Source: a virus (taxonomy: Duplodnaviria > Heunggongvirae > Uroviricota > Caudoviricetes). Taken from it: a DNA stretch of 64,000 bases. The position numbers were made by a program, and so were the translations under genes. The notes below the pieces were generated by a model, which saw only the letters and a list, made by a program, of their open reading frames with translations, made no database searches and had not been told where the DNA came from. The stretch covers positions 87,000 through 150,999 of the IMG/VR virus record IMGVR_UViG_3300032293_000813, one strand, 5' to 3'. The number at the start of each line of letters is the position of its first letter. Position 1 is the stretch's first letter. Below are positions 12,189 to 24,961 of this stretch, in pieces.

Positions 12189-12557
12189 TGGTGGAGGTGG
12201 AGGGAGTCGAACCCTCGTCCAAATACGGATTTAATAAACCTCATTCACAAGCTTAGTTAGTTTTTCTTAACTAACAAAATAGATAAAGATTTATACATTC
12301 GTTATCATTAATGTTCCAATTCGATTTCGGGTTCAATTGGTCTCCACCTGAGTTCACATTCTATTTTAAGTCCCACGATGTGTGCGGGAGGGATTAGGCT
12401 GCTATAGCGTAATCAGCACCAACGAATGCCATAGCATCTTCGAAGGTCATTGTAGATAATTCTACGTCGTTTATTGTTCGATAGGTATTTAAGGATTTCC
12501 ATCTAACCCTGCTTGCAACTTACCAACTCATCGTACCTGTCAAAACCAGGCACCCCC
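12189..12557 (-). ncRNA. ssrA: tmRNA (SsrA), one-piece, ~369 nt
   Basis: The 5' end GGGGGUGCCUGGUUUUGACAGG resembles E. coli GGGGCUGAUUCUGGAUUCGACGGG. The 3' end GGACGAGGGUUCGACUCCCUCCACCUCCACCA resembles E. coli GGACGCGGGUUCAACUCCCGCCAGCUCCACCA; the acceptor stem pairs GGGGGUG with CACCUCC. An internal tag frame ends ...GGU GCU GAU UAC GCU AUA GCA GCC UAA (GADYAIAA*). Confidence 0.8.
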
Positions 12558-14173: not shown

Positions 14174-15202
14174 TTATTCTCTAATTGTATCCAACGTTAC
14201 ACAATGAGGCCCACCACTAAAGGTTCTAGCATGTCTCATACGGACGGGTATAGAATCTACCCCATACTTCTTTAATTCTTTCATAAGAGGTATCTGTCGT
14301 TCCTCTACTATCATCGTATTCTCATCATAAGAAAGAGTGTTCATTCCCAACCAGGGTGATGCTTCTGCCCAATGTTCTAAACAATTTGTTTCCACCATCT
14401 CAGGAGAGTATATAACCTCCCACGATTGAAAGATTTTAGGTAGGTTGGTATGATTTACCCTTTTAGGATTAACTAAGACCAGTCCCTCTCTAATGAGTAC
14501 AAAAGTGGTATCTATATGGATGAATGCATATACATCTTCTATAGGATGTACATTATACTTTTCTTTCATATTTTCATCCAACCATTTTTGAAGATATTCG
14601 GCTCCTGCTCTGTTGCCGGTATTAGATATTAGGAATAGAATATCGTTATTACACTTAAGAATATTAGCCGCATCAAATACAGGCTCATCATTTCTTAATG
14701 TAGGGCCTGGTAACAATCCCCTATCATATATCGAATCTAATAATTTTGGTTTAGGAAAATCTACCCAATGTGATTCATCGAATAGATGTTTAAATGCTCT
14801 CGTTTCATTTTGTCGTTGGCGGAGAGCCATAGGAGTAGCAATAACTTTATCTTCTATAACTAACATAGAATCTCTAGGGCAGTATCCGTAGTAACCATCT
14901 ACTTCCCAATTTTCAGTTGAATAGGTTTCACTCCAATCGATTAAAGCAGGCCTGTGAACTTTAACACCTAACCCTTCTAATGTTTTACTTAAATTGTTTA
15001 GGTCTTCCGTAGTTTCTTCAATCATCCAATTAGGATAAGTTCCATATGGTATCTTACGAAATTGGTCATCTGTGTAATTAGCGTAATCAATCGTATGTAA
15101 TGATTTATCTCTTATAGTAGGAATCTGAGCAAATTCAGGTCTTCCTACGATTATCTCTTTTAGTTTCCCCCACTCATTTCTTATATAAGGTTTAATCTTC
15201 AT
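14174..15202 (-). CDS. L-arginine:glycine amidinotransferase (AGAT/CyrA/SxtG family)
   Basis: Collinear with human AGAT: [20 protein letters not shown] vs [29 protein letters not shown]...CPRDSMLVI...[36 protein letters not shown]; C-terminal catalytic SGGPHCVT vs GGGFHCWT. Confidence 0.85.
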   Translation of the reverse strand: [342 protein letters not shown]

Positions 15203-15212
15203 AAAAATTTAT

Positions 15213-15782
15213 TTAATCTATAAACGCTGCATTTGCATCTCTATTAGAAAGAATAGGAGTTTGAGTAGGCCAATCTATTTTTAATTTCGGGTCATCCCAT
15301 CTAGCCGTCTTTTGTTTAGTGTCATCATTATATTCACCTTCATACGCCATTTTGTATGTGAAAAGAGAATCATCGGTTAGCACATAGTGACCATTAGCAA
15401 ACATCGGAGGACAGAGTATCTGTATTTGAGTTTGAGGAGACATAATAAATGTTTCAGATTTTAAATATGTTTCCGATTCAGGTCTCATATCAACTAACAC
15501 CGTATATAGTGAACCCAATGGACAACTTAATAGCTTCCACGTCTTATTATCGTAATGCAATCCTCTCAATACTCCTTTATAGGATTGTGAAAATCTATCA
15601 TGTTTAAACTCTAAATCAGTTGGTAATACCTTTGGGAAATAGTCCGTATGAAATGTAGTCCATATTGAGCCCCTAAATTCATGATAAACTGAATTGGATA
15701 TAATTTTTACATCCGTTAAAACTTTACCACTATTGACATGAAATTCATCCCAATTTTGATTTTTGTAAAATAACTTTTCCAT
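15213..15782 (-). CDS. RmlC-like cupin (dTDP-4-dehydrorhamnose 3,5-epimerase family)
   Basis: GVLRGLHYD, KLLSCPLGSLYTVLVDMRPESETY, FANGHYVL, RWDDPKLKIDWP and LSNRDANA align with RmlC motifs. Confidence 0.8.
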   Translation of the reverse strand: MEKLFYKNQNWDEFHVNSGKVLTDVKIISNSVYHEFRGSIWTTFHTDYFPKVLPTDLEFKHDRFSQSYKGVLRGLHYDNKTWKLLSCPLGSLYTVLVDMRPESETYLKSETFIMSPQTQIQILCPPMFANGHYVLTDDSLFTYKMAYEGEYNDDTKQKTARWDDPKLKIDWPTQTPILSNRDANAAFID

Positions 15783-16423
15783 TATATTAAATTTTGTTTG
15801 TTTTTATTAATTCTAATTTTCCTATATGGCGATAACACATATTCTTCATAGTGAACATCACTCATCTCCATACCTAAATATTTAAATAAATCTCTAATGT
15901 TAGATTTATCATGTTCTACAAATATATCTTCATAGTAGAATATAGGAAATTTTTTATCATATGATATCTTATGAAGAATTTCACTTGATTCCATATACCT
16001 ACTAAACATTGTTTTAATGTAAGATGGTTCTATTTTATCAACATCGTAAATCTTAGGAGTATGCCACCCAATACCTCTTTCCCTCATAGATGTTTCATTG
16101 ATAGCAAAACTTTCCGATTGAGCAAGTTTATCCTTCCTATCCAATATAATTATTTTATCAAAAAAAGTGTAACACCAATCGAGATATTCATATACATTCT
16201 TAAATGAATCAATCGGATAATCATCTATACCAATTAAAAATAAATTTTTAATTAATATGTTTTCTACATTTAAAATAGAATCTATTTTCTTTAGATATTG
16301 ATTGAATTCGTAATTGAATGGCTCTATAAGAGTTGTATGATTAGATAATTTTATATGAGAATCTATCAATTTAACCAATGAAGTAGAACCACTTCTAGGT
16401 GTAGCTAATATTAATATTCTCAT
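15782..16423 (-). CDS. Stf0-like sulfotransferase
   Basis: ILILATPRSGSTSLVKLIDSH matches the Stf0 5'-PSB PAPS-binding loop (ILASQRSGSTLLVESL). Confidence 0.65.
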   Translation of the reverse strand: MRILILATPRSGSTSLVKLIDSHIKLSNHTTLIEPFNYEFNQYLKKIDSILNVENILIKNLFLIGIDDYPIDSFKNVYEYLDWCYTFFDKIIILDRKDKLAQSESFAINETSMRERGIGWHTPKIYDVDKIEPSYIKTMFSRYMESSEILHKISYDKKFPIFYYEDIFVEHDKSNIRDLFKYLGMEMSDVHYEEYVLSPYRKIRINKNKQNLI

Positions 16424-16489
16424 AAAATATATTCGAATGTTATAACCATAGTAACAAATATAATAAAAATTTGTTACATTACCAAATGA

Positions 16490-17035
16490 TTATAATAAAT
16501 TAATCCTTTTGATATGTGGTTCGCTAATAAATATTGTTAATGATTTCCTACTTCCCTTTATAATAGGAGTAACCTCGTGTGGCACTTTTACTCCAAATGT
16601 ATAAGTGTACCCGATTGTTCTGGGTATCAATTCTTTCACATCATTTCTATAAACATACATATCCCCACCTTCGTAATCAAACTCATTGGAAAGTTGTACA
16701 CAAACCGTCATATATCTTCTAGGTGTCGGAGTCGGCGGTTCATCTATGTGTTTCATAAAAAAATCACCAATTTCATATTTCCTAAATACGGCGTGTGGAT
16801 GATTTATTAACTCAAACCCCAAATGTAGAGAGCTAATCCATTGTGATAGTTTTATAAAAACCCAATCAATATCTTCATCCCAATTTAATTCACTACTTTG
16901 CATTTTACATCCGATATCATTCCATTTACCATCCATAAAAACTGGATATAATGTATCAGATGTTTCCCCCATATGAACCAGCAAAGACCGAATTTCATCC
17001 GAAGAAAACAAATTAGTATGTGCTATATGATTCAC
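16490..17035 (-). CDS. 2OG-Fe(II) oxygenase
   Basis: HIDE (HxD) ... PHEVTP (His) ... RKSLTIF (RxS). Confidence 0.55.
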   Translation of the reverse strand: MNHIAHTNLFSSDEIRSLLVHMGETSDTLYPVFMDGKWNDIGCKMQSSELNWDEDIDWVFIKLSQWISSLHLGFELINHPHAVFRKYEIGDFFMKHIDEPPTPTPRRYMTVCVQLSNEFDYEGGDMYVYRNDVKELIPRTIGYTYTFGVKVPHEVTPIIKGSRKSLTIFISEPHIKRINLL

Positions 17036-17201
17036 TATCTAATATAAAGTATCTATGATAAATGTTTAGCTTTAATTCTATCTACTACCTCCTTCATTGC
17101 CAAAGATGTTTTAGTTTTCAATTCGGGTGTAATAGGGGCAATTACAACTTTAATTACAGTCTGCGGTCTTTCAATTTTATTTATAATCATTTTTATATTA
17201 T

Positions 17202-18686
17202 TTAAGCTTTTGCAAATCTTTCTATACACGCGGGGCACCACGATGAATAACACCAGTCTCCACAATAACTCCATGGACACCAACATGGGTTATGCATTAC
17301 CCCAAAATCACCTGTACCCAAATCAACTAAAAATAAATCCGATGGCTCGAAATCTAAAGCATATACCATCATTTTAGCATGCTCCATTTCTAATGATGCA
17401 ATTTCTAATGTAGTTAATTCTGATGTTGTGGAATCTGTTATTACTATTTTATCCCCCACATACATTTTATTTAATATCTCAAATCTAGTTGCAGAAGAAC
17501 CTGATTCTTCAATATAATATGTACATGCAGGTGAATCTATCCAATTTCTACCATCTGTTAATGTAACTCTGATAAACATAGTATCAACTGATGCAGAAGT
17601 TACAAAATTCAAACTAGAACTAGTCTGAGTTAAAGTTTGGTTAGATTGTTGTAAATTACTTTCCCAACCTAACACATCCAATTTACCTTCTTCAAAATTA
17701 CCACCATGATTACCATTAAAATCAACGAAATCAATAGAACGGATATAGCTACCTAATTGTATAGTGTCAGCCCTTTGCAAAGAACCGGTATAATCTATAA
17801 TCATTGAATCCTCGTCCGTATGATATTCGTGCTTTACATCATCTATTCTTTTTGTAATATATTTGTATCTACTTTTCTGGTCAAGTTTAGTTGAACCACT
17901 TATAAATTCAGTTGCGAAATTAGAAAGGGGTACAATGGTGGATTGTTTATATCCACCCATATTAATAACATCTAGAGTAGGACCGTATAATATATCAATA
18001 TTTCTTATTATAGAATACCTATCCTCTACCAAATTATCCTCAGAATATACAAATTCTTGCACTAAATAATTAGTGGGTAAATTACCTTTTATATTATCCA
18101 ACTCTGACTGATTACTCAATGTATGAAGTTCTGGATATAAAACTTTATCGTATTCAGGATATCTAGCTTTTATCAAAAGATTTGGGTTCGAAGTAGAGGT
18201 ATAATCTACTGAATCCAATGTATCTAAATTTACTTCAGCAGTTTCAAAAAATGTTTTTGGGATATACTCAGAAGTATGCATTAAATTAAAAAACTCAAAT
18301 TTATCAGCGCAATATGTTTCATCTACCAATGCAGTTGTATCATATGATTGTCTTAATATAAATTTAGTAGGAGAATCTTCTATATAAGGTACAGTGATTG
18401 AACCCAATGGAACAATATATTCGGCGAATGTAATATTACTTCCCGAACATCTTTCTTCTAAAATTTGTTTAAATCTATATGGTTCATATAAAGGTGTAAA
18501 CGCATCTGTTTCTGTCCAAATATAGTGAAATTCCGTAACTCCACTTGAACTCAGCATATTAAATAAACTATCATAATCTAGTATATCTGCCCCCTGATTA
18601 TAAATCGTTGTATTGGTATTAATTTCTAAAAACTTGACATCTCCATTATATTCTAATAAATCACTGCCAATTATTACTCCTTTCAT
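17202..18686 (-). CDS. hypothetical 494-aa protein with Cys/Trp-rich C-terminal tail
   Basis: C-terminus HNPCWCPWSYCGDWCYSSWCPACIERFAKA; no confident family. Confidence 0.5.
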   Translation of the reverse strand: MKGVIIGSDLLEYNGDVKFLEINTNTTIYNQGADILDYDSLFNMLSSSGVTEFHYIWTETDAFTPLYEPYRFKQILEERCSGSNITFAEYIVPLGSITVPYIEDSPTKFILRQSYDTTALVDETYCADKFEFFNLMHTSEYIPKTFFETAEVNLDTLDSVDYTSTSNPNLLIKARYPEYDKVLYPELHTLSNQSELDNIKGNLPTNYLVQEFVYSEDNLVEDRYSIIRNIDILYGPTLDVINMGGYKQSTIVPLSNFATEFISGSTKLDQKSRYKYITKRIDDVKHEYHTDEDSMIIDYTGSLQRADTIQLGSYIRSIDFVDFNGNHGGNFEEGKLDVLGWESNLQQSNQTLTQTSSSLNFVTSASVDTMFIRVTLTDGRNWIDSPACTYYIEESGSSATRFEILNKMYVGDKIVITDSTTSELTTLEIASLEMEHAKMMVYALDFEPSDLFLVDLGTGDFGVMHNPCWCPWSYCGDWCYSSWCPACIERFAKA

Positions 18687-18722
18687 ATAGTATTCTGTTA
18701 ATTTAGTATAAATATCCGTTTT

Positions 18723-19013
18723 TTATATTATAGTATCCTTAGATTTCTTAATTAATCGTTCCATATATTTAGAATCAATATCCTCCCACTTCTCCATTGG
18801 ACATGGGTTAAACATAGGAGAGAATACCTTTTTACCTAATGGACACCCACACAACTTACACACCGTAGACCATTTAATTCCCCTAAGTGTCTCCTTTCTG
18901 TGTTCACATGATTTGCATATTTCCAACCTATCCTTTGCCATAGATTTCTGAGATTCCGATGGATTTTTAGAAATTACCCAAGCTTCAAATATTTCTTTAT
19001 AGTTTGGTATCAT
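18723..19013 (-). CDS. Cys-rich putative zinc-binding protein
   Basis: CKSCEH...CKLCGC...NPCP. Confidence 0.4.
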   Translation of the reverse strand: MIPNYKEIFEAWVISKNPSESQKSMAKDRLEICKSCEHRKETLRGIKWSTVCKLCGCPLGKKVFSPMFNPCPMEKWEDIDSKYMERLIKKSKDTII

Positions 19014-19747
19014 ATTATCGATTTATTACTTTTTGGGGATTCATAATATTCGTATATAGAATCATACCTTAGCATAAATTCACTATCCAATTGTATAGCC
19101 GTTTTCACAAATGAACTAGAATTTACATGCTTTAATTTGAATTCAACATTAGTAATATTAGATACCCATTCTTCTAATTTATACATCTCATTGATATTAA
19201 ACCAAATAATATTTTTATGGTGGATATGCCAATGTGAAAGCGGGGTGATTAAAATATCAATTATATTATTAATATATCGATATGATGCATCATATCTTAA
19301 CTCCGGTATTATGTTAAATAAATATTCGTTTATGATGTGGTGTCTATTTTTATTTGTCATAATATCATCTGTATTAAAAAAGAATAATTCATCTAATGTA
19401 AAATTAGAAAATTTATATGATAATTCCCTTGCACCAATTCTTTCTAAATCAAATATAATATGCTTGTATAGTGAATAAAATCTTTCATATTTATTACGTT
19501 TTACCGCTATAATAGGTAAATCGTAACCAAATTTATTTTGTAATTCGGATAGAGGTGAATGCCCATGCTCTATAAAATTCATTATATCCGATTCATCTAT
19601 GGAATTAAAATCTATCTTAGAATTATCAAAATCAGCTTTAGTATCTAAATTTTTTACAGTTAGACCATTTATTATACATGAATAATGAAATGAAGTAGAA
19701 CCACAACGTGGTAATGAAATATATAGAAATTTATTATCTACTAACAT
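19010..19747 (-). CDS. putative sulfotransferase (Sulfotransfer_2-like)
   Basis: N-terminal FLYISLPRCGSTSF resembles the carbohydrate-sulfotransferase PAPS loop (hIhIPKtGGTs). Confidence 0.45.
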   Translation of the reverse strand: MLVDNKFLYISLPRCGSTSFHYSCIINGLTVKNLDTKADFDNSKIDFNSIDESDIMNFIEHGHSPLSELQNKFGYDLPIIAVKRNKYERFYSLYKHIIFDLERIGARELSYKFSNFTLDELFFFNTDDIMTNKNRHHIINEYLFNIIPELRYDASYRYINNIIDILITPLSHWHIHHKNIIWFNINEMYKLEEWVSNITNVEFKLKHVNSSSFVKTAIQLDSEFMLRYDSIYEYYESPKSNKSII

Positions 19748-20394
19748 TATACCAAACTTTTTTCTTTTTTAATTAACTCAAATCCAACATTGCCCGCCAA
19801 CACAACTCTATCTATTGTAGAATTGGGTGCATTATTTGGAGAGTGCGGCATCCACCCCTCCATCACTACTAAATCATCTTCCTCTGGTCTTATCCAATAT
19901 TCTGTATTATCCTTTCCTTTGAAGTATAGTACACCATCTTCACCATCCATTACATCGGGCATCTGTATATAATAAACATATGTGTAATCCGGAACAAATG
20001 ATTTTGTTTTTTTATTAATTTCTGTATGAGTATGGTATTTTTGCTTTTTATCGTAAAAGTTTTCTTGCACCGGCTCCTTTGAGCGAACAACATTCACCCA
20101 CGCATCCGTATTAACTTTATTAAATTCTTTATTAAATTGTTGTAGGTATATATCCTTACATATATCAATACCATACTGACAAACCTCATCTAATTTATTT
20201 TCTACGGTAAAAGTTCCGTTGAAATCTATATTGTTATTCCATTCTTTTTTATAACCAAACCCATCTGTATGAACTATTTCTTTTAGGGATTCTATTAAAG
20301 TATTAGCTTCGATTAAAATCATATCTCTATGTGATGATAGATTTAATTTACCTTTCCATATAAATGTATTATCATCAAAATAAATCTTTTCCAT
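19747..20394 (-). CDS. hypothetical protein, possibly cupin/2OG-oxygenase-like
   Basis: YHTHTE ... MPHSP ... RVVLAG spacing; weak. Confidence 0.3.
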   Translation of the reverse strand: MEKIYFDDNTFIWKGKLNLSSHRDMILIEANTLIESLKEIVHTDGFGYKKEWNNNIDFNGTFTVENKLDEVCQYGIDICKDIYLQQFNKEFNKVNTDAWVNVVRSKEPVQENFYDKKQKYHTHTEINKKTKSFVPDYTYVYYIQMPDVMDGEDGVLYFKGKDNTEYWIRPEEDDLVVMEGWMPHSPNNAPNSTIDRVVLAGNVGFELIKKEKSLV

Positions 20395-20395
20395 A

Positions 20396-21643
20396 CTATA
20401 TTAATTCTTTTATTGAAACTTTTTTATTTTTCTTAAAAATCATCTGATAGTTGTAAACAAAAAAAGTTAATTCAGTTTCCTCTACTTCTTTTAAATCAAA
20501 TATTTTTAATAATTCAGCATTCGTTTTTGGTATAATATTATTATTATCGTCTAATATTAATTTTAATTTTTCTGGTATTGGCATTTCATATGATGCTTTC
20601 CAAAACGGAGTATCAAATCTTTCAGCTAAATAGTGATATCTAACGAACATCATGTTTTGCTCATTGATACTAGAGCAGGTATCATTAAATCTATCTCTAA
20701 GTGATACATCAAACTTAGCACTTATTAATCTCTTTAGTTGCATTATAGTTGACATCAATGAGGTAGCTTCCAACGGTTCTATGAATCCATATGATAGCCC
20801 AATTGCAACACTATTACCTATCCAACTTCTTTTATGTGTACCTGGCTTAAAATCAAATACTTTTTGTATAGTAATTTCTTTACCTATGTAATCTTCCACT
20901 TCTTTCTTAGCTTCTTCAACCGTAATAAATTCTGAATTAAATGTATATCCACATCCCCATCTATGTTGCAATGGTATCTGCCACATCCAACCTGAATCCA
21001 TTGAAATCATATTAGTGTGGGTTACATCTCCTATTGCATATTGATTTTCTTGTGGTAAAAAATATGCCATAGCTCTATTCAATAAAAGATATTTAGAATA
21101 ATCAATCCATTCATCATTGTGAACCTTACCTATAATAACTCTAGCAAAACCACTGCAATCAAATACAAAATCTATACCCTTAATATCAATTCCTTCCTTA
21201 AGTGAAATGGAATGGATATCCTCACCTGTTTTATCTACCACATCGACCTCACCTTCAATCCACTTAACACCTCTTGATAATGATACTTCTTTTAAGTATT
21301 CCGCTACCATTCTTGCATCAAAATGATATGCGTAATTTTGTTTAAACGCATTTGGTTTCGGTCCTGTAAAAAGATGCGATGAACTTTTCCCATCACCTGT
21401 CCAATTTGATAGTGTTAACCCTAATTTACTTGTGCAACCTGTTCTTTTAAAAAAATCATTTTGGTTTATTTCCAATAAAGATAAAAACGCACCAAAGTTA
21501 GGAGTAGCTCCTTCTCCTGCTCCTAATATTCCTATCTTAGAACTTTCTATTAAAGTAACAGATGCATCTTTCCAAAATTTATTAACAGATAGGGCGGTTA
21601 GCCACCCCGCAGTTCCGCCTCCAATAACAATTACATTTTTCAT
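20396..21643 (-). CDS. flavin-dependent halogenase (tryptophan-halogenase family)
   Basis: N-terminal VIVIGGGTAGW FAD motif plus WMWQIP (WxWxIP) motif. Confidence 0.7.
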   Translation of the reverse strand: MKNVIVIGGGTAGWLTALSVNKFWKDASVTLIESSKIGILGAGEGATPNFGAFLSLLEINQNDFFKRTGCTSKLGLTLSNWTGDGKSSSHLFTGPKPNAFKQNYAYHFDARMVAEYLKEVSLSRGVKWIEGEVDVVDKTGEDIHSISLKEGIDIKGIDFVFDCSGFARVIIGKVHNDEWIDYSKYLLLNRAMAYFLPQENQYAIGDVTHTNMISMDSGWMWQIPLQHRWGCGYTFNSEFITVEEAKKEVEDYIGKEITIQKVFDFKPGTHKRSWIGNSVAIGLSYGFIEPLEATSLMSTIMQLKRLISAKFDVSLRDRFNDTCSSINEQNMMFVRYHYLAERFDTPFWKASYEMPIPEKLKLILDDNNNIIPKTNAELLKIFDLKEVEETELTFFVYNYQMIFKKNKKVSIKELI

Positions 21644-22209
21644 ATTAAACTAACTTTTTTAATTGATGATGGCCAAACATTCAACGAATATCTTAGACCA
21701 GATTCTATAGTATCAACCGAATGTGTTATATTAGAATCAAACATAAACACACTTCCCATTTCCTTTGGTACTGAATACTCTACTTTATTTATATTGTATT
21801 TAACCAACCCTCCTTCATAATTATCATTTAACTGAATAATAAGTGTTGTGGTTGCTCCGTTTATTATCTCATGCTTATCTTCATGCCAATCTAAAAAATC
21901 TCCATCGGAATAACGATTAAATGAATACTTTTGAATAGAAGTATATGTTACACCATTGAATGGGTTTAACTCATTTGAAATTAATAAAATTTTATCCGAT
22001 ATATTCTTTATTCGAGAATCGGATAATACATCTCCTATAAAATAACCACCCATTCTTTTATTACCATTGTATTCAATATCCTCTTCCATTACCACACCAT
22101 TTAGAATTTTGGATGATTTCATTTGTTGCAATCCATTATCCTCGCCATATGAAATAATAAAATCACACTCTTCTTTACTTAAAAAGTTTTGAATAAATTT
22201 GTAAAACAT
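21640..22209 (-). CDS. 2OG-Fe(II) oxygenase
   Basis: WHEDKH (HxD) ... ITHSV ... RYSL (RxS). Confidence 0.55.
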   Translation of the reverse strand: MFYKFIQNFLSKEECDFIISYGEDNGLQQMKSSKILNGVVMEEDIEYNGNKRMGGYFIGDVLSDSRIKNISDKILLISNELNPFNGVTYTSIQKYSFNRYSDGDFLDWHEDKHEIINGATTTLIIQLNDNYEGGLVKYNINKVEYSVPKEMGSVFMFDSNITHSVDTIESGLRYSLNVWPSSIKKVSLI

Positions 22210-22421
22210 TATTTATTTTTTAATCCGTATTTAATCCACTTATACCAAACTCTTTCATGTAGATAATACTGAATGGGTTTATAAATCAATTCTGCTACTC
22301 CAAATGCCGCTCCAACTTTAATTGAACCACTTACCCACCACATTATACCAAACCCAATTAAGGTAGATATAATACGGTATGAAATAGTTTTAGCTATATG
22401 TCGTTTACGTTGTACTATCAT
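22209..22421 (-). CDS. small membrane protein (2 TM)
   Basis: Hydrophobic 70-aa ORF. Confidence 0.4.
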   Translation of the reverse strand: MIVQRKRHIAKTISYRIISTLIGFGIMWWVSGSIKVGAAFGVAELIYKPIQYYLHERVWYKWIKYGLKNK

Positions 22422-23026
22422 ATTAAACCTTTTATGTTTTTATTTTTTAAAAATTCAGTACCATTAAAAGTAGTATATTTTAATTCGTAGTTATATCTAA
22501 ATGATGTGTTTTTACTATATGGCAAGGATTCAATTTCACCTTCAGTTAACTCATGTCTATATGAGTTAAATCGTGTATCTAATGTGCGTAAAGCAAAAAA
22601 TGAAACTATAGTACCATTCTTACAATTAGGTTTTATGCAATCTAAAAATTTAGGAATATTTTTATCATGATGAGTATCATGTAAAACACCATCAAATTGT
22701 TTGTTTAGCATAGGTATGATATTAATCCAATCACCTAATATCACTTCAGTATTTGGTTTACCTTTAGCCCATACAAGCGCATGCTTATATATTTCAGGGT
22801 GAACCTCTATAATCGTATGAGATTTTACGGCTGGATTTGATTGAATAGCATCTGCCGATATATGCATACCAAATCCGATTTCTAAAATATCACCACCATT
22901 CATAGTGGCAATTTCAGCTAATTTATCCATCAAAGATTTTTCACCTCTGTGCATAACATAGTCACCTTTTAATCCATCTATTCTGATTTCATCTGATGAT
23001 AATATTAATTTTTCTGTTCCGTTCAT
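22418..23026 (-). CDS. guanidinoacetate N-methyltransferase-like (GAMT/RMT2 family) SAM methyltransferase
   Basis: VMHRGE...GGDILEIGFGMHISADAIQ...HTIIEVHPEIYKHAL...FDGVLHDTHH aligns with rat GAMT VMERWE...GGRVLEVGFGMAIAASRVQ...HWIIECNDGVFQRLQ...FDGILYDTYP. Confidence 0.75.
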   Translation of the reverse strand: MNGTEKLILSSDEIRIDGLKGDYVMHRGEKSLMDKLAEIATMNGGDILEIGFGMHISADAIQSNPAVKSHTIIEVHPEIYKHALVWAKGKPNTEVILGDWINIIPMLNKQFDGVLHDTHHDKNIPKFLDCIKPNCKNGTIVSFFALRTLDTRFNSYRHELTEGEIESLPYSKNTSFRYNYELKYTTFNGTEFLKNKNIKGLI

Positions 23027-23403
23027 TACCCTTTGGTTTCATCATAGGTAATAGTTCCATCTGATGTCATATGACCTGTTCTGATAGCAGTTCCACTAAT
23101 TGTTGCAATATCCGTTGGTGGCTCGTGATAGATTACATCGTAACCAACACCTCTACCATAATTTACCGATTCAATATCAGGAATAATAGATAACAAAATT
23201 TTATCAATCTTATCTAAAAAGAATTTTTCATTTGATAACTCCTTTAGAATTTGTTGTGCAGTTTTAGGATTGTTTTCATCCTGCTGAACATCTCTGATTG
23301 CTACCCAAACATTTTTACCTTTATTTAATTGTTGGTTTATTAACCATTCATGCCCTTTGTGCCAATTTTGCCATCTTCCGATGTACATTGCATATTTTTT
23401 CAT
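23026..23403 (-). CDS. NadM-like nucleotidyltransferase (archaeal-type NMN adenylyltransferase family)
   Basis: YIGRWQNWHKGHEWL vs NadM IIGRFQPFHKGHLEV, and ISGTAIR vs YSGTEIR. Confidence 0.55.
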   Translation of the reverse strand: MKKYAMYIGRWQNWHKGHEWLINQQLNKGKNVWVAIRDVQQDENNPKTAQQILKELSNEKFFLDKIDKILLSIIPDIESVNYGRGVGYDVIYHEPPTDIATISGTAIRTGHMTSDGTITYDETKG

Positions 23404-23843
23404 AAATCTAATTTTTGTAATAATTTTCTATATGATTGAAATTCGTTATCAATTGTTGTATCACAATCTATAAAATTTTCAATCGGTGGTTGGTATCCTT
23501 CCACAAAGAAATTCTCTCTACCTCTTTCCTCCGTTGTATGAACATATACTTCTTTGATGTTATCGTCTCCTATCAATTGTTTAAAAGAATCTCGTTGGTC
23601 TTTATATGGAGAAACTAATGATACTAATGCAAGACCTCCTTTATTATGTATGAAGTGTGCAAGATGTTGTGCCAATTCTACATTCTTTCTACGACCTATT
23701 TCTGAATAATCCTTATTGTTAAATATTTCTCTTATATCATCACCATCTACAATAGTAGGGTGGAGAGAATGAAGATGAGTATATAACATCTTTACTAAAG
23801 TTGTCTTACCTGCACCTGGCTGACCTGTTAACCAATAAATCAT
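23400..23843 (-). CDS. cysC: adenylylsulfate (APS) kinase, PAPS-forming
   Basis: WLTGQPGAGKTTL, DGDDIREIFN and VSLVSPYKDQRD match CysC WFTGLSGSGKST, LDGDNVRHGL and ISPHRAER. Confidence 0.8.
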   Translation of the reverse strand: MIYWLTGQPGAGKTTLVKMLYTHLHSLHPTIVDGDDIREIFNNKDYSEIGRRKNVELAQHLAHFIHNKGGLALVSLVSPYKDQRDSFKQLIGDDNIKEVYVHTTEERGRENFFVEGYQPPIENFIDCDTTIDNEFQSYRKLLQKLDL

Positions 23844-24961
23844 TTGTATATATATTTTACTATTTTATTACTTTGATTACGTTGTAAAATGCTGTATTCC
23901 ATAACATTGTGCATATACTCTTTCAGATACGTTCGTTGTACATCATTATACCATTCGATATCATTATTTAGTATAGTTTCCAAATGATTCATAAATTCTT
24001 CTCCTTCTCCAAAAAAATATATAGGAGAGTTAAATGTAAATCCCATCTTTTCTAATGCATACTTAACTTCTTTTTTTCCATAATATACAAAAGGATTTCC
24101 GGATTTTAGAGCCTTGTGTATCTTCTCAGATAGGTATAATCCATTCATTTTTAATAGATGATGAGTCTCCGTTATTATTTCAAAAAAGGATTCAAAATAT
24201 ATTCTATAATTCATAGGAACTGTACCAATATGATTAATACCTAATATTTTCTTTTTCTGTTGTTCTACTTCACTAATCTTAGATAATCCAGGATATGTAT
24301 CATAGTACATAGGATATTTAATGCCATGCGCTTCACATTCTTTTAAAAACCATTCCTCTGATTCTATGCCGAAGTGTGCTTCATTAAAATCTATTAAATT
24401 AAAAGATATATTACCTTCCGATTGTTTATTATTTTTATGAATTAATTTAAGTATATCAAATCTAATAGGAGAGAAGTGATTGTTAAGAAACATAAATTTT
24501 TTCTTTATTGTCCCCAAATCTGCACGCTTAATTATATCTAATGCATGTACGAATTCCGTTTCACAATTTTCCGTTACCCATTGATTGGGGTTATAAAAAA
24601 TAAAATCATCTTTACCTAAATAATTTATATCATTAGTTAACCAAATTAAGCGTTTGTTATGAAGAAGGGTTTTGTAAAAATTTATAATATTATTTGTAAT
24701 CTTACTTTCTTCTATAGCAAAGTTTATCACAAATCTTATTTCAGAATTAAAATCATATACAGATTCTATATTATCTCTTAGCCTATTAACCCATATTTGA
24801 TTAGTATAATCAAACGAATCCATAGACTTACTGATTTCTATTAATTTTACGTTTTTGTCAAATGCAGTATTGGTGCTAAATCCTCTTGGTAAATAAAATA
24901 CCAATCCACCATCTCTGATTTCAGATTCTCCGTTATTAAATATGTGTAAAGCTCGTAACAT
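23840..24961 (-). CDS. hypothetical protein
   Basis: 373-aa ORF between the APS kinase and an SGNH paralog. Confidence 0.45.
   Translation of the reverse strand: MLRALHIFNNGESEIRDGGLVFYLPRGFSTNTAFDKNVKLIEISKSMDSFDYTNQIWVNRLRDNIESVYDFNSEIRFVINFAIEESKITNNIINFYKTLLHNKRLIWLTNDINYLGKDDFIFYNPNQWVTENCETEFVHALDIIKRADLGTIKKKFMFLNNHFSPIRFDILKLIHKNNKQSEGNISFNLIDFNEAHFGIESEEWFLKECEAHGIKYPMYYDTYPGLSKISEVEQQKKKILGINHIGTVPMNYRIYFESFFEIITETHHLLKMNGLYLSEKIHKALKSGNPFVYYGKKEVKYALEKMGFTFNSPIYFFGEGEEFMNHLETILNNDIEWYNDVQRTYLKEYMHNVMEYSILQRNQSNKIVKYIYK

What the first reader, a model, noticed from the sequence alone, without database searches (positions are those of the whole stretch)
15782..23843. PAPS supply plus two sulfotransferases: a phage sulfation module
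APS kinase (23400-23843) has diagnostic DGDDIR and SPYKDQRD motifs. A Stf0-like sulfotransferase (15782-16423) and a second PRCGSTS-loop sulfotransferase candidate (19010-19747) lie nearby. A phage supplying its own PAPS-forming step implies high sulfation demand during infection; the target (metabolite, glycan or protein) is unknown.
Basis: partly seen in the sequence, partly recalled or inferred. Interest (0 to 1): 0.7.

Follow-up and report, generated by a model that had tools for sequence, protein, structure and literature searches.

The report
Phage sulfate-activation and sulfotransferase operon

Summary
ORF 23400-23843 is an APS-kinase-family protein: Pfam 67.8 bits against a cut-off of 21.1, and its best solved relatives are all APS kinases. 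It lacks about 23 residues of the lid.

- It lies next to the kinase in 86 of 86 related phage loci.
- It is fused to the kinase in Xylella phage Salvo and in 37 of 52 long representatives.
- In cellular genomes it sits beside APS kinase, sulfotransferases and CysQ-like genes.
- In Nitrospiraceae it sits in a sulfite reductase-CysH operon, where ATP sulfurylase would be expected.

No canonical ATP sulfurylase, CysDN or CysH was found in any phage locus. The best reading is a self-contained PAPS synthase feeding sulfotransferases, not an assimilatory cysC gene. The acceptor is unknown. All enzyme activities are inferred.

The parts
23400..23843 (-). Lid-less APS-kinase-family kinase (147 aa). 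Proposed reaction: APS + ATP -> PAPS + ADP.
   Evidence: Pfam APS_kinase 67.8 bits. The PDB matches are APS kinases, best E 8.6e-12. G12, K13, D33-G34-D35, R38, R51, P79 and R84 are invariant against canonical CysC, with a deletion of about 23 aa in the lid. At least 2950 relatives in metagenomes.
23026..23403 (-). Minimal HIGH-motif adenylyltransferase (125 aa), NMNAT-like. Proposed APS-forming ATP sulfurylase analogue.
   Evidence: Its ATG overlaps the kinase TGA (ATGA). The motifs GRWQxWHxGH and ISGTxIR are present. The family profile hits archaeal NMNATs at E 5.5e-9 over the N-terminal 80 residues only. It lies next to the kinase in 86/86 phage loci. It is fused to the kinase in Xylella phage Salvo gp32, and both proteins match the single PHROG family phrog_10255. 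Of 52 long representatives, 37 carry APS_kinase. Genome context.
22418..23026 (-). SAM-methyltransferase-like protein (202 aa). It lies between the adenylyltransferase and DUF2061, and its role in the module is uncertain.
   Evidence: Weak Methyltransf_25 hit, E 0.026. TAATG and ATGA junctions with its neighbours. Found in 15 of 86 loci, so it is not part of the conserved core.
22209..22421 (-). DUF2061 small predicted membrane protein (70 aa). A frequent third member of the kinase-adenylyltransferase unit; role unknown.
   Evidence: Pfam DUF2061 58.3 bits. Follows the pair in 45/86 phage loci, many of which are truncated. Fused to the kinase in genome locus L167 and present in one long adenylyltransferase-family representative.
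19010..19747 (-). ST2: orphan-family sulfotransferase-fold protein (245 aa).
15782..16423 (-). ST1: Sulfotransfer_1/3-type (Stf0-like) sulfotransferase (213 aa).
14174..22209 (-). The rest of the tightly packed tailoring operon around the two sulfotransferases. It holds three 2OG-Fe(II) oxygenases (21640-22209, 19747-20394, 16490-17035), a Trp-halogenase-family FAD enzyme (20396-21643), a Zn-ribbon protein (18723-19013), a 494-aa protein with a Cys-rich tail (17202-18686), an RmlC-like epimerase (15213-15782) and an amidinotransferase-like protein (14174-15202). These are candidate co-tailoring enzymes, and the 494-aa protein is a candidate substrate.
   Evidence: Pfam hits. The ORF coordinates show 1-4 nt overlaps or short gaps between successive genes. 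The 494-aa protein, the Zn-ribbon protein, ST2 and the 2OG oxygenases recur next to the kinase unit in many loci.

Best explanation
This is a phage-borne sulfation module built around a self-contained, miniaturised sulfate-activation unit.

Step 1 (inferred). The 125-aa HIGH-motif adenylyltransferase (23026-23403) condenses ATP and sulfate to APS + PPi. That is the ATP sulfurylase reaction, carried out by a family that is not Sat and not CysDN.

Step 2 (inferred from family membership and conserved substrate-binding residues). The lid-less APS kinase (23400-23843) phosphorylates the 3'-OH of APS to give PAPS. The two genes are translationally coupled and are fused in other organisms, which suggests APS is handed directly from one enzyme to the other. 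The small DUF2061 membrane protein often travels with them; its role is unknown.

Step 3 (fold and PAPS-binding motifs shown, chemistry inferred). Two unrelated sulfotransferases, ST1 (15782-16423) and ST2 (19010-19747), transfer sulfate from PAPS to hydroxyl or amine acceptors made or modified by the surrounding tailoring enzymes (2OG oxygenases, halogenase, epimerase, methyltransferase).

The acceptor is unknown. One candidate is a glycan of the host envelope or the virion, by analogy with the capsule-cluster context of the same unit in bacteria. The other is the Cys/Trp/Tyr-rich C-terminal peptide of the neighbouring 494-aa protein.
For: Kinase family and residues.

Sulfotransferase folds and motifs.

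Operon structure: ATGA and TAATG junctions.

Coupling of kinase and adenylyltransferase:
- Adjacent in 86/86 IMG/VR loci.
- One PHROG family covers both proteins.
- Fused in Xylella phage Salvo gp32.
- In 80 GTDB genome loci, an APS-kinase ORF lies upstream of the adenylyltransferase, usually within about 1 kb, or is fused to it, in 69 of 79.
- 37 of 52 long family representatives carry APS_kinase, and no other enzymatic fusion partner recurs.

Link to sulfation:
- ST1-like, ST2-like or Sulfotransfer_3 proteins lie within 10 kb in 18 of 30 long phage loci, plus a sub-threshold Sulfotransfer_2-like protein in one further lineage.
- In Marinimicrobia-type genome loci the commonest neighbouring family is Sulfotransfer_5 (13 proteins in 17 loci), set within polysaccharide gene clusters.
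- In 22 other genome loci: Sulfotransfer_3 x6, Sulfotransfer_1 x3, and CysQ-like Inositol_P x4.
- Methanosarcinales locus L136 reads adjacent: adenylyltransferase-APS kinase fusion, then CysQ-like, then a protein with an ST1-like N-terminus fused to a glycosyltransferase.

Link of the adenylyltransferase to APS formation:
- Nitrospiraceae loci read Rrf2, sulfite reductase, CysH, adenylyltransferase, with no kinase.
- No Sat, CysD or CysN signature motif appears in any of the 166 loci.
- No sulfur-assimilation gene appears elsewhere in the window.
Against: - There is no biochemical evidence for any step.
- The adenylyltransferase is closest in sequence to archaeal NMN adenylyltransferases, not to ATP sulfurylase, and lacks the Sat motifs.
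- The kinase lacks the lid that in canonical enzymes carries the second adenine-stacking Phe and ATP-contacting basic residues, and it misses the NCBIfam equivalog score. It could be inactive or act on another adenylylated substrate.
- 12 of 30 long phage loci showed no ST1-like, ST2-like or motif-detected sulfotransferase. One phage lineage (L030, L055, L072) has the pair next to a DNA methylase and no sulfotransferase in view.
- The four Nitrospiraceae loci are close relatives, so they amount to about one independent observation.
- The absence of Sat and CysDN was tested only by signature regex, and only within about 8-10 kb of the locus, not genome-wide.
Confidence: 0.62

Rival explanations
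1. An ordinary assimilatory-sulfur auxiliary gene. The phage cysC boosts host sulfate assimilation to cysteine during infection, as phage cysC is usually interpreted. The sulfotransferase-like genes are then unrelated neighbours.
For: Phage cysC genes are common in large freshwater phages and are highly transcribed, and were read this way in PMC10914622. JGI names the homologues adenylylsulfate kinase.
Against: No CysH, sulfite reductase, CysDN or Sat was found in the window or in 86 related phage loci. The unit is instead flanked by several different sulfotransferase families. PAPS on its own is a dead end without a reductase or a transferase.
Confidence: 0.1
2. The kinase-adenylyltransferase pair makes something other than PAPS. 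One possibility is NAD or another 3'-phospho-adenylylated cofactor, using the logic of NadR (NMNAT plus a kinase) or of PPAT plus dephospho-CoA kinase. The host would then supply any PAPS the sulfotransferases use.
For: The adenylyltransferase profile matches NMNAT structures at E 5.5e-9, and its best NCBIfam hits are NMNAT models. The kinase lid is deleted. Some phage lineages have the pair with no sulfotransferase nearby.
Against: - The kinase matches APS kinases far better than any other P-loop kinase family (1.4e-18 against 5.6e-3 for AAA_28), and NadR does not appear among its PDB matches.
- The APS-contacting Arg, Asn and aromatic residues are conserved.
- The NMNAT match covers only the ATP-binding half. 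The protein is about 45 aa shorter than archaeal NMNATs and scores 23.7 bits against a cut-off of 127.
- Its neighbours are sulfotransferases, CysQ-like genes, CysH and sulfite reductase, never NAD genes.
- Its fusion partners include canonical full-length APS kinases, up to 179.7 bits.
Confidence: 0.15
3. The two sulfotransferase-fold proteins are not sulfotransferases. They use the fold for another reaction or only bind a nucleotide, and the kinase has a separate role.
Against: Both keep the 5'-PSB loop and the R...S 3'-PB pair as invariant residues at the right secondary-structure positions. ST1's top 19 fold matches are all sulfotransferases. Both families co-occur repeatedly with the PAPS-forming kinase.
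Confidence: 0.08

Closest known systems
Bifunctional PAPS synthase / Sat-CysC fusions (ATP sulfurylase plus APS kinase; e.g. human PAPSS1, Aquifex 2gks)
   Same: The logic is the same: an adenylyl-transfer enzyme of the HIGH-motif nucleotidyltransferase superfamily is coupled or fused to an APS kinase to make PAPS. The kinase half is homologous.
   Different: The adenylyltransferase half is about 115-130 aa instead of about 390. It lacks the PUA-like domain and the QxRNPxHxxH and GRDHAG motifs, and it is closest to NMNATs. The phage kinase lacks the lid. The ATP sulfurylase activity is inferred only.
Rhizobial NodPQ-NodH and mycobacterial CysDNC-Stf0 sulfation systems
   Same: A dedicated sulfate-activation unit is encoded beside a sulfotransferase that decorates a glycan or glycolipid. 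ST1 resembles Stf0 and NodH-type enzymes.
   Different: Activation there uses the CysD/CysN GTPase-coupled sulfurylase. Here no CysDN is present, the carrier is a phage, and the acceptor is unknown.
Phage-encoded cysC reported as an auxiliary metabolic gene (e.g. 62 cysC genes in freshwater phages, PMC10914622)
   Same: Probably the same gene family, in the same kind of large freshwater phage.
   Different: That work reads the gene as assimilatory sulfate reduction. In the passages read, the obligate adenylyltransferase partner and the sulfotransferase neighbourhood are not mentioned.
Archaeal NMN adenylyltransferase (NadM; 1f9a, 1ej2)
   Same: Closest solved relatives of the 125-aa protein. 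They share GRxQPxHxGH, the ENPxT segment, the DIE strand and the SxTxxR motif.
   Different: The region between DIE and SxTxxR is about 21 aa shorter, and the family has its own invariant residues R37 and G83-R84-x-x-G87-Y88. The curated NMNAT cut-offs are not met. The genomic context is sulfur metabolism, not NAD metabolism.

Membership tests
APS kinase (CysC; Pfam PF01583) | Score above the curated Pfam gathering threshold. | tested here: met
   67.8 bits against 21.1.
APS kinase (CysC; Pfam PF01583) | Walker A P-loop; the DGD-x-x-R motif (catalytic Asp and APS-binding Arg); an aromatic-Ser...R...N APS-binding segment; SP(Y/F)xxxR. | tested here: met
   GQPGAGKT, D33-G34-D35-D-I-R38, Y46-S47, R51, N54 and S78-P79-Y80...R84, aligned to the solved APS kinases and to canonical CysC. 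The roles assigned to these residues come from my own knowledge of published APS kinase structures.
APS kinase (CysC; Pfam PF01583) | Mobile lid (KGLYxKAR...FTGI) carrying the second adenine-stacking Phe. | tested here: not met
   A deletion of about 23 aa relative to canonical CysC. The same deletion occurs in the mini-kinases of Marinimicrobia and MGIII archaea.
APS kinase (CysC; Pfam PF01583) | NCBIfam equivalog score (TIGR00455). | tested here: not met
   67 bits against a cut-off of 138.7.
APS kinase (CysC; Pfam PF01583) | Catalytic conversion of APS to PAPS. | not testable with these tools
   Needs an enzyme assay or cysC complementation.
PAPS-dependent sulfotransferase fold - ST1 (15782-16423) | Sulfotransferase fold. 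| tested here: met
PAPS-dependent sulfotransferase fold - ST1 (15782-16423) | 5'-PSB loop (P-K/R-x-G-S/T-T/S after strand 1) and 3'-PB Arg...Ser. | tested here: met
   P9-R10-S11-G12-S-T-S15 follows strand 2-7. R96 follows strand 90-95, with S103/S105 in helix 99-115. All are invariant in 40 sequences.
PAPS-dependent sulfotransferase fold - ST1 (15782-16423) | Pfam Sulfotransfer_1 or Sulfotransfer_3 gathering score. | tested here: not met
   22.3 against 27 and 19.1 against 22 for the window protein. Homologues at 56-65% identity do carry precomputed PF00685 or PF13469 hits.
Stf0 subfamily specifically - ST1 | Closest relationship to Stf0 rather than to other sulfotransferases. | tested here: inconclusive
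PAPS-dependent sulfotransferase fold - ST2 (19010-19747) | Sulfotransferase fold. | tested here: met
PAPS-dependent sulfotransferase fold - ST2 (19010-19747) | 5'-PSB and 3'-PB residues. | tested here: met
   P13-R14-C-G-S17-T18 follows strand 7-10. R84 follows strand 79-83, with S92 in helix 86-103 (R-x7-S). All are invariant in 40 sequences.
PAPS-dependent sulfotransferase fold - ST2 (19010-19747) | Membership of any curated sulfotransferase sequence family. | tested here: not met
   No Pfam, NCBIfam or PHROG hit. None of the 120 listed members of the 692-protein family has a Pfam hit. A family profile finds no sulfotransferase in the PDB.
ATP sulfurylase (Sat, PF01747) - adenylyltransferase 23026-23403 | QxRNPxHxxH and GRDHAG motifs; a catalytic domain of about 200 aa plus a PUA-like domain. 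| tested here: not met
   The motifs are absent (regex) and the protein is only 125 aa. It is not a member of the Sat family. The claim made here is functional analogy only.
HIGH-motif nucleotidyltransferase superfamily - adenylyltransferase 23026-23403 | HxGH motif after strand 1 and a C-terminal ISxTxxR motif. | tested here: met
   W-H15-K-G17-H18 and I-S103-G-T105-A-I-R108 are invariant or nearly so. Relatives match Pfam CTP_transf_like.
NMN adenylyltransferase (archaeal NadM type) - adenylyltransferase 23026-23403 | Curated family score, a full-length match, and an NAD-metabolism context. | tested here: not met
   NCBIfam gives 23.7 against 127 and 22.5 against 181.2. The profile match covers only residues 5-80. 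The neighbours are sulfur-metabolism genes and the only recurrent fusion partner is APS kinase.

The most novel reading that the evidence does not exclude
The 125-aa protein represents a third, so far unrecognised class of ATP sulfurylase. It would be a minimal NMNAT-like sulfate adenylyltransferase of about 115-170 aa. It pairs or fuses with APS kinase, or sits beside APS reductase, in place of Sat or CysDN in Marinimicrobia, Bacteroidota, Nitrospiraceae, several archaeal and candidate phyla, and many large phages. Together with the lid-less kinase it would form the smallest known PAPS synthase. Phages carry that unit so they can sulfate a target independently of host sulfur metabolism.
Probability: 0.45. 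Interest if true: 0.85.

Novelty: new variant of a known kind. Interest (0 to 1): 0.68.

Why it matters
Sulfate activation is textbook chemistry with two known enzyme solutions, Sat and CysDN. A third and much smaller solution would change how sulfur assimilation and sulfation are annotated in abundant ocean and freshwater lineages, where these genes are currently labelled 'cytidylyltransferase-like' or 'hypothetical'.

For phage biology, it would reinterpret the widely reported phage 'cysC' gene. The gene would be the core of a sulfation toolkit rather than a booster of host cysteine synthesis. That points to sulfated glycans, peptides or metabolites as an unexplored class of phage-directed modification.

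A PAPS synthase of about 270 aa would also be useful for in vitro PAPS regeneration.

Tried and rejected
Searches that led nowhere:
- Megablast of 15000-24000 against 50,697 phage records found no match. There is no cultured close relative, and PhoH relatives are at most 36% identical.
- Single-sequence PDB searches for ST1 and ST2 found nothing useful. A profile of the ST2 family also found no sulfotransferase by sequence, so fold prediction was needed.
- The promoter and terminator scan was uninformative: fewer promoter-like sites than in shuffled sequence.
- A literature search for DUF2061 gave only incidental mentions.
- Searches for a described non-canonical ATP sulfurylase, or for an NMNAT-like partner of APS kinase, found nothing relevant. 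One search failed on term length. That is absence in the held library, not proof of novelty.

Ideas considered and set aside:
- The kinase as a NadR-type ribosylnicotinamide kinase. Rejected on family scores and PDB matches.
- The pair as part of DNA hypermodification, because of the Salvo-type phages and the DNA methylase neighbours in L030, L055 and L072. No supporting evidence was found, and the cellular contexts argue for sulfur metabolism.
- The tandem 239-262-aa genes after the kinase unit in L001 as sulfotransferases. They did not match the ST1 or ST2 profiles or the 5'-PSB motif search; three of them start with an SGNH/GDSL-like GDS motif (my reading of the N-termini).

Full report
**What is in the window.** The finding lies in a long minus-strand gene array of about 31% G+C. 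From 25839 down to 18723 successive ORFs overlap by 1-4 nt or are 1 nt apart. The junctions read directly from the sequence are ATGA at 373-aa ORF/kinase, kinase/adenylyltransferase and methyltransferase/DUF2061, and TAATG at adenylyltransferase/methyltransferase and DUF2061/2OG. This looks like one translationally coupled operon.

The sequence is viral. It has no near-identical cultured relative. Close and distant relatives are IMG/VR contigs of up to 297 kb. Related contigs carry phage sheath and T4-type baseplate genes. The window also encodes PhoH, UvdE and other typical large-phage cargo.

**Checking the observation.**

*Kinase (23400-23843, 147 aa).*
- It passes the Pfam APS_kinase threshold (67.8 bits against 21.1).
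- Every one of its 22 PDB sequence matches is an APS kinase or APS-kinase domain.
- Aligned with canonical CysC proteins, it keeps the P-loop, D33-G34-D35, R38, Y46-S47, R51, N54 and S78-P79-Y80...R84. By my knowledge of the published APS kinase structures, these are the catalytic Asp and the residues that hold APS.
- It lacks about 23 residues that form the lid in canonical enzymes.
- It misses the strict NCBIfam equivalog score.

*ST1 (15782-16423).*
- It is below the Pfam thresholds.
- Its homologues carry Sulfotransfer_1 or Sulfotransfer_3 hits.
- Its family profile finds the CurM sulfotransferase.

*ST2 (19010-19747).*
- It belongs to a family of at least 692 proteins with no Pfam annotation in any listed member and no sequence-level link to any solved structure.

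In both sulfotransferase families the 5'-phosphosulfate-binding loop (PRSGSTS in ST1, PRCGSTS in ST2) and the 3'-phosphate-binding Arg...Ser pair (R96...S103/S105 in ST1, R84...S92 in ST2) are invariant. They sit on the expected strand-loop-helix elements.

Immediately downstream of the kinase, with its start codon overlapping the kinase stop codon, is a 125-aa protein (23026-23403). It has an HxGH motif (GRWQNWHKGH) and an ISGTxIR motif, the two signatures of the HIGH-motif nucleotidyltransferase superfamily.

- A profile of the family matches archaeal NMN adenylyltransferases at E 5.5e-9. The match covers only the ATP-binding N-terminal 80 residues. The protein is about 45 aa shorter than those enzymes and fails their curated cut-offs.
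- It is adjacent to the kinase in all 86 related viral loci.
- A single PHROG family (phrog_10255, annotated 'kinase') covers both proteins, because in Xylella phage Salvo gp32 and its relatives the two are one polypeptide.
- A DUF2061 membrane protein (22209-22421) follows the pair in 45 of the 86 loci, many of which are truncated. Elsewhere it is found fused to the kinase.

**Context outside phages.** Scanning one genome per GTDB species with the family alignment returned 80 loci. They come from Marinimicrobia, Bacteroidota, Nitrospiraceae, Omnitrophota, Acidobacteriota, candidate-phyla bacteria, and marine group III, thaumarchaeal and Methanosarcinales archaea. Many sit on contigs of 0.1-4.5 Mb.

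- In 69 of 79 loci with a called ORF, an APS-kinase-like ORF lies upstream, usually within about 1 kb, or is fused to the adenylyltransferase. Both mini (about 150 aa) and canonical (about 200 aa) kinases occur.
- Among the 150 best representatives in a library of 1.8 billion proteins, I scanned the 52 longest. Of these, 37 carry an APS_kinase domain (best E 9.5e-69). No other enzymatic fusion partner recurs.
- In 17 Marinimicrobia-type loci the commonest neighbouring family is Sulfotransfer_5 (13 proteins), inside capsule and polysaccharide clusters.
- In 22 other loci the neighbours include Sulfotransfer_3 (6 proteins), Sulfotransfer_1 (3) and CysQ-like Inositol_P (4).
- A Methanosarcinales locus reads, in adjacent genes: adenylyltransferase-APS kinase fusion, CysQ-like, and a protein with an ST1-like N-terminus fused to a glycosyltransferase. 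That is synthesis, recycling and probable use of PAPS side by side.
- In four Nitrospiraceae loci there is no kinase. The gene follows an Rrf2 regulator, a sulfite reductase and CysH. This is an assimilatory sulfate-reduction operon in which the only missing step is APS formation.
- Signature motifs of Sat, CysD and CysN occur in none of the 80 genome loci or 86 phage loci.

**Mechanism.** I therefore propose a three-step pathway.
1. The small adenylyltransferase makes APS from ATP and sulfate.
2. The lid-less kinase converts APS to PAPS.
3. ST1 and ST2 spend the PAPS on an acceptor.

Shown here: family and fold membership, conserved cofactor-binding residues, operon structure, and obligate linkage and fusion of the two activation genes. 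Inferred: every catalytic activity, and in particular the sulfate specificity of the adenylyltransferase. That specificity rests on gene context alone and runs against the protein's closest sequence relatives.

**Link to sulfotransferases in phages.** The kinase unit is accompanied by different sulfotransferase families in different lineages.
- ST1-like or ST2-like proteins occur in many loci.
- A bona fide Sulfotransfer_3 family (60 bits) lies about 2.5 kb upstream of the kinase (and directly upstream in two shorter loci) in loci that lack ST1 and ST2.
- A sub-threshold Sulfotransfer_2-like protein occurs in another lineage.
- In total, 18 of 30 long loci have a detected sulfotransferase within 10 kb. 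These loci are not independent of one another.

**Rival readings.** The usual reading of phage cysC is as an assimilatory-sulfur auxiliary gene (PMC10914622). It is poorly supported here, because no reductase genes accompany the kinase. An NAD-related or other-cofactor role for the pair cannot be excluded, but it fits neither the kinase's family nor any observed context. A non-sulfotransferase role for ST1 and ST2 is unlikely, given the invariant PAPS-binding residues.

**The acceptor.** The acceptor remains open. Two leads exist.
- The cellular contexts (capsule clusters), together with the RmlC-like epimerase here and the glycosyltransferase, SGNH and carbamoyltransferase genes in related islands, point to a glycan.
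- The 494-aa protein (17202-18686) is among the most frequent neighbours of the unit. Some relatives end in intein-like NHNFYAN..VHNK motifs and carry Hint/AXH Pfam hits. Others, including the window's copy, have '...HN' followed by a variable Cys/Trp/Tyr-rich tail of about 30 aa. A released peptide that is then halogenated, hydroxylated and sulfated is conceivable but untested.

**Novelty.** Phage APS kinases and phage sulfotransferases have each been listed before. Sulfate activation coupled to a sulfotransferase is also a known kind of system. Four things appear new in this material:
- the obligate adenylyltransferase partner and its probable role;
- the lid-less kinase subfamily shared by phages and marine bacteria and archaea;
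- the orphan ST2 family;
- the reinterpretation of phage cysC as the core of a sulfation toolkit.

I rate it a new variant of a known kind. Interest is moderately high because the central claim can be tested with two small proteins.

Noticed in passing
window 12189-12557 (-): A phage-encoded tmRNA. ARAGORN predicts the tag peptide DVELSTMTFEDAMAFVGADYAIAA, and Rfam RF00023 matches the full-length model at 105.1 bits against a gathering score of 47.
   Followed up: partly
window 17202-18686 (-); homologues in L007, L019, L040-L042, L080, L084 and others: A 494-aa protein ends in ...GVMHN followed by PCWCPWSYCGDWCYSSWCPACIERFAKA. Its homologues either end in intein-like NHNFYAN..VHNK motifs with Hint/AXH Pfam hits, or have 'HN' followed by a variable Cys-rich tail of about 30 aa. 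This may be an autoprocessing precursor of a modified peptide. It usually lies next to a 96-aa Zn-ribbon protein and ST2.
   Followed up: partly
L130, L132, L137, L142 (Nitrospiraceae genome loci): The gene order is Rrf2 regulator, sulfite reductase (NIR_SIR plus TusA), CysH, small adenylyltransferase, TrpD-like protein, DUF420. This is a sulfate-assimilation operon with no recognisable ATP sulfurylase.
   Followed up: partly
L087 5983-6729 (Xylella phage Salvo gp32, NC_042345.1 15167-15913): A cultured phage carries the kinase-adenylyltransferase fusion, annotated only as 'kinase'. It lies among early genes near a cysteine dioxygenase and a MazG-like gene, with no annotated sulfotransferase nearby. 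It could serve as an experimentally tractable model.
   Followed up: no
window 14174-15202 (-) and 22418-23026 (-): An amidinotransferase/ADI-superfamily protein (phrog_25854) shares the operon with a methyltransferase. The methyltransferase's homologue in L001 (34% identity by tblastn) hits the Pfam guanidinoacetate N-methyltransferase family. The pairing recalls the two steps of creatine synthesis. Not examined further.
   Followed up: no
window 20396-21643 (-): A full-length tryptophan-halogenase-family flavoenzyme (Pfam E 4.7e-92) sits inside the phage operon, flanked by 2OG-Fe(II) oxygenases.
   Followed up: no
L167 (Bacteroidia MAG), 232-aa ORF upstream of the adenylyltransferase: An APS-kinase-like domain and DUF2061 lie in one ORF (both HMMs hit it). 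One long adenylyltransferase-family representative also carries DUF2061. This links a domain of unknown function to sulfate activation.
   Followed up: partly
window, ORFs outside the finding: A Pfam census of the other ORFs of 100 aa or more finds UvdE, cyclophilin, Band_7, a 4HBT thioesterase, HSP20, a weak peptide deformylase hit, a DNA methylase and a metallophosphoesterase. It finds no sulfur-assimilation genes. The census reports family counts only, so individual ORFs were not assigned.
   Followed up: no
L030, L055, L072 (IMG/VR loci): In one phage lineage the kinase-adenylyltransferase pair is followed directly by an N4/N6 DNA methylase-like gene (DLIVTSPPY motif). No sulfotransferase was seen within 5-10 kb. 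The sulfation model does not explain this.
   Followed up: no
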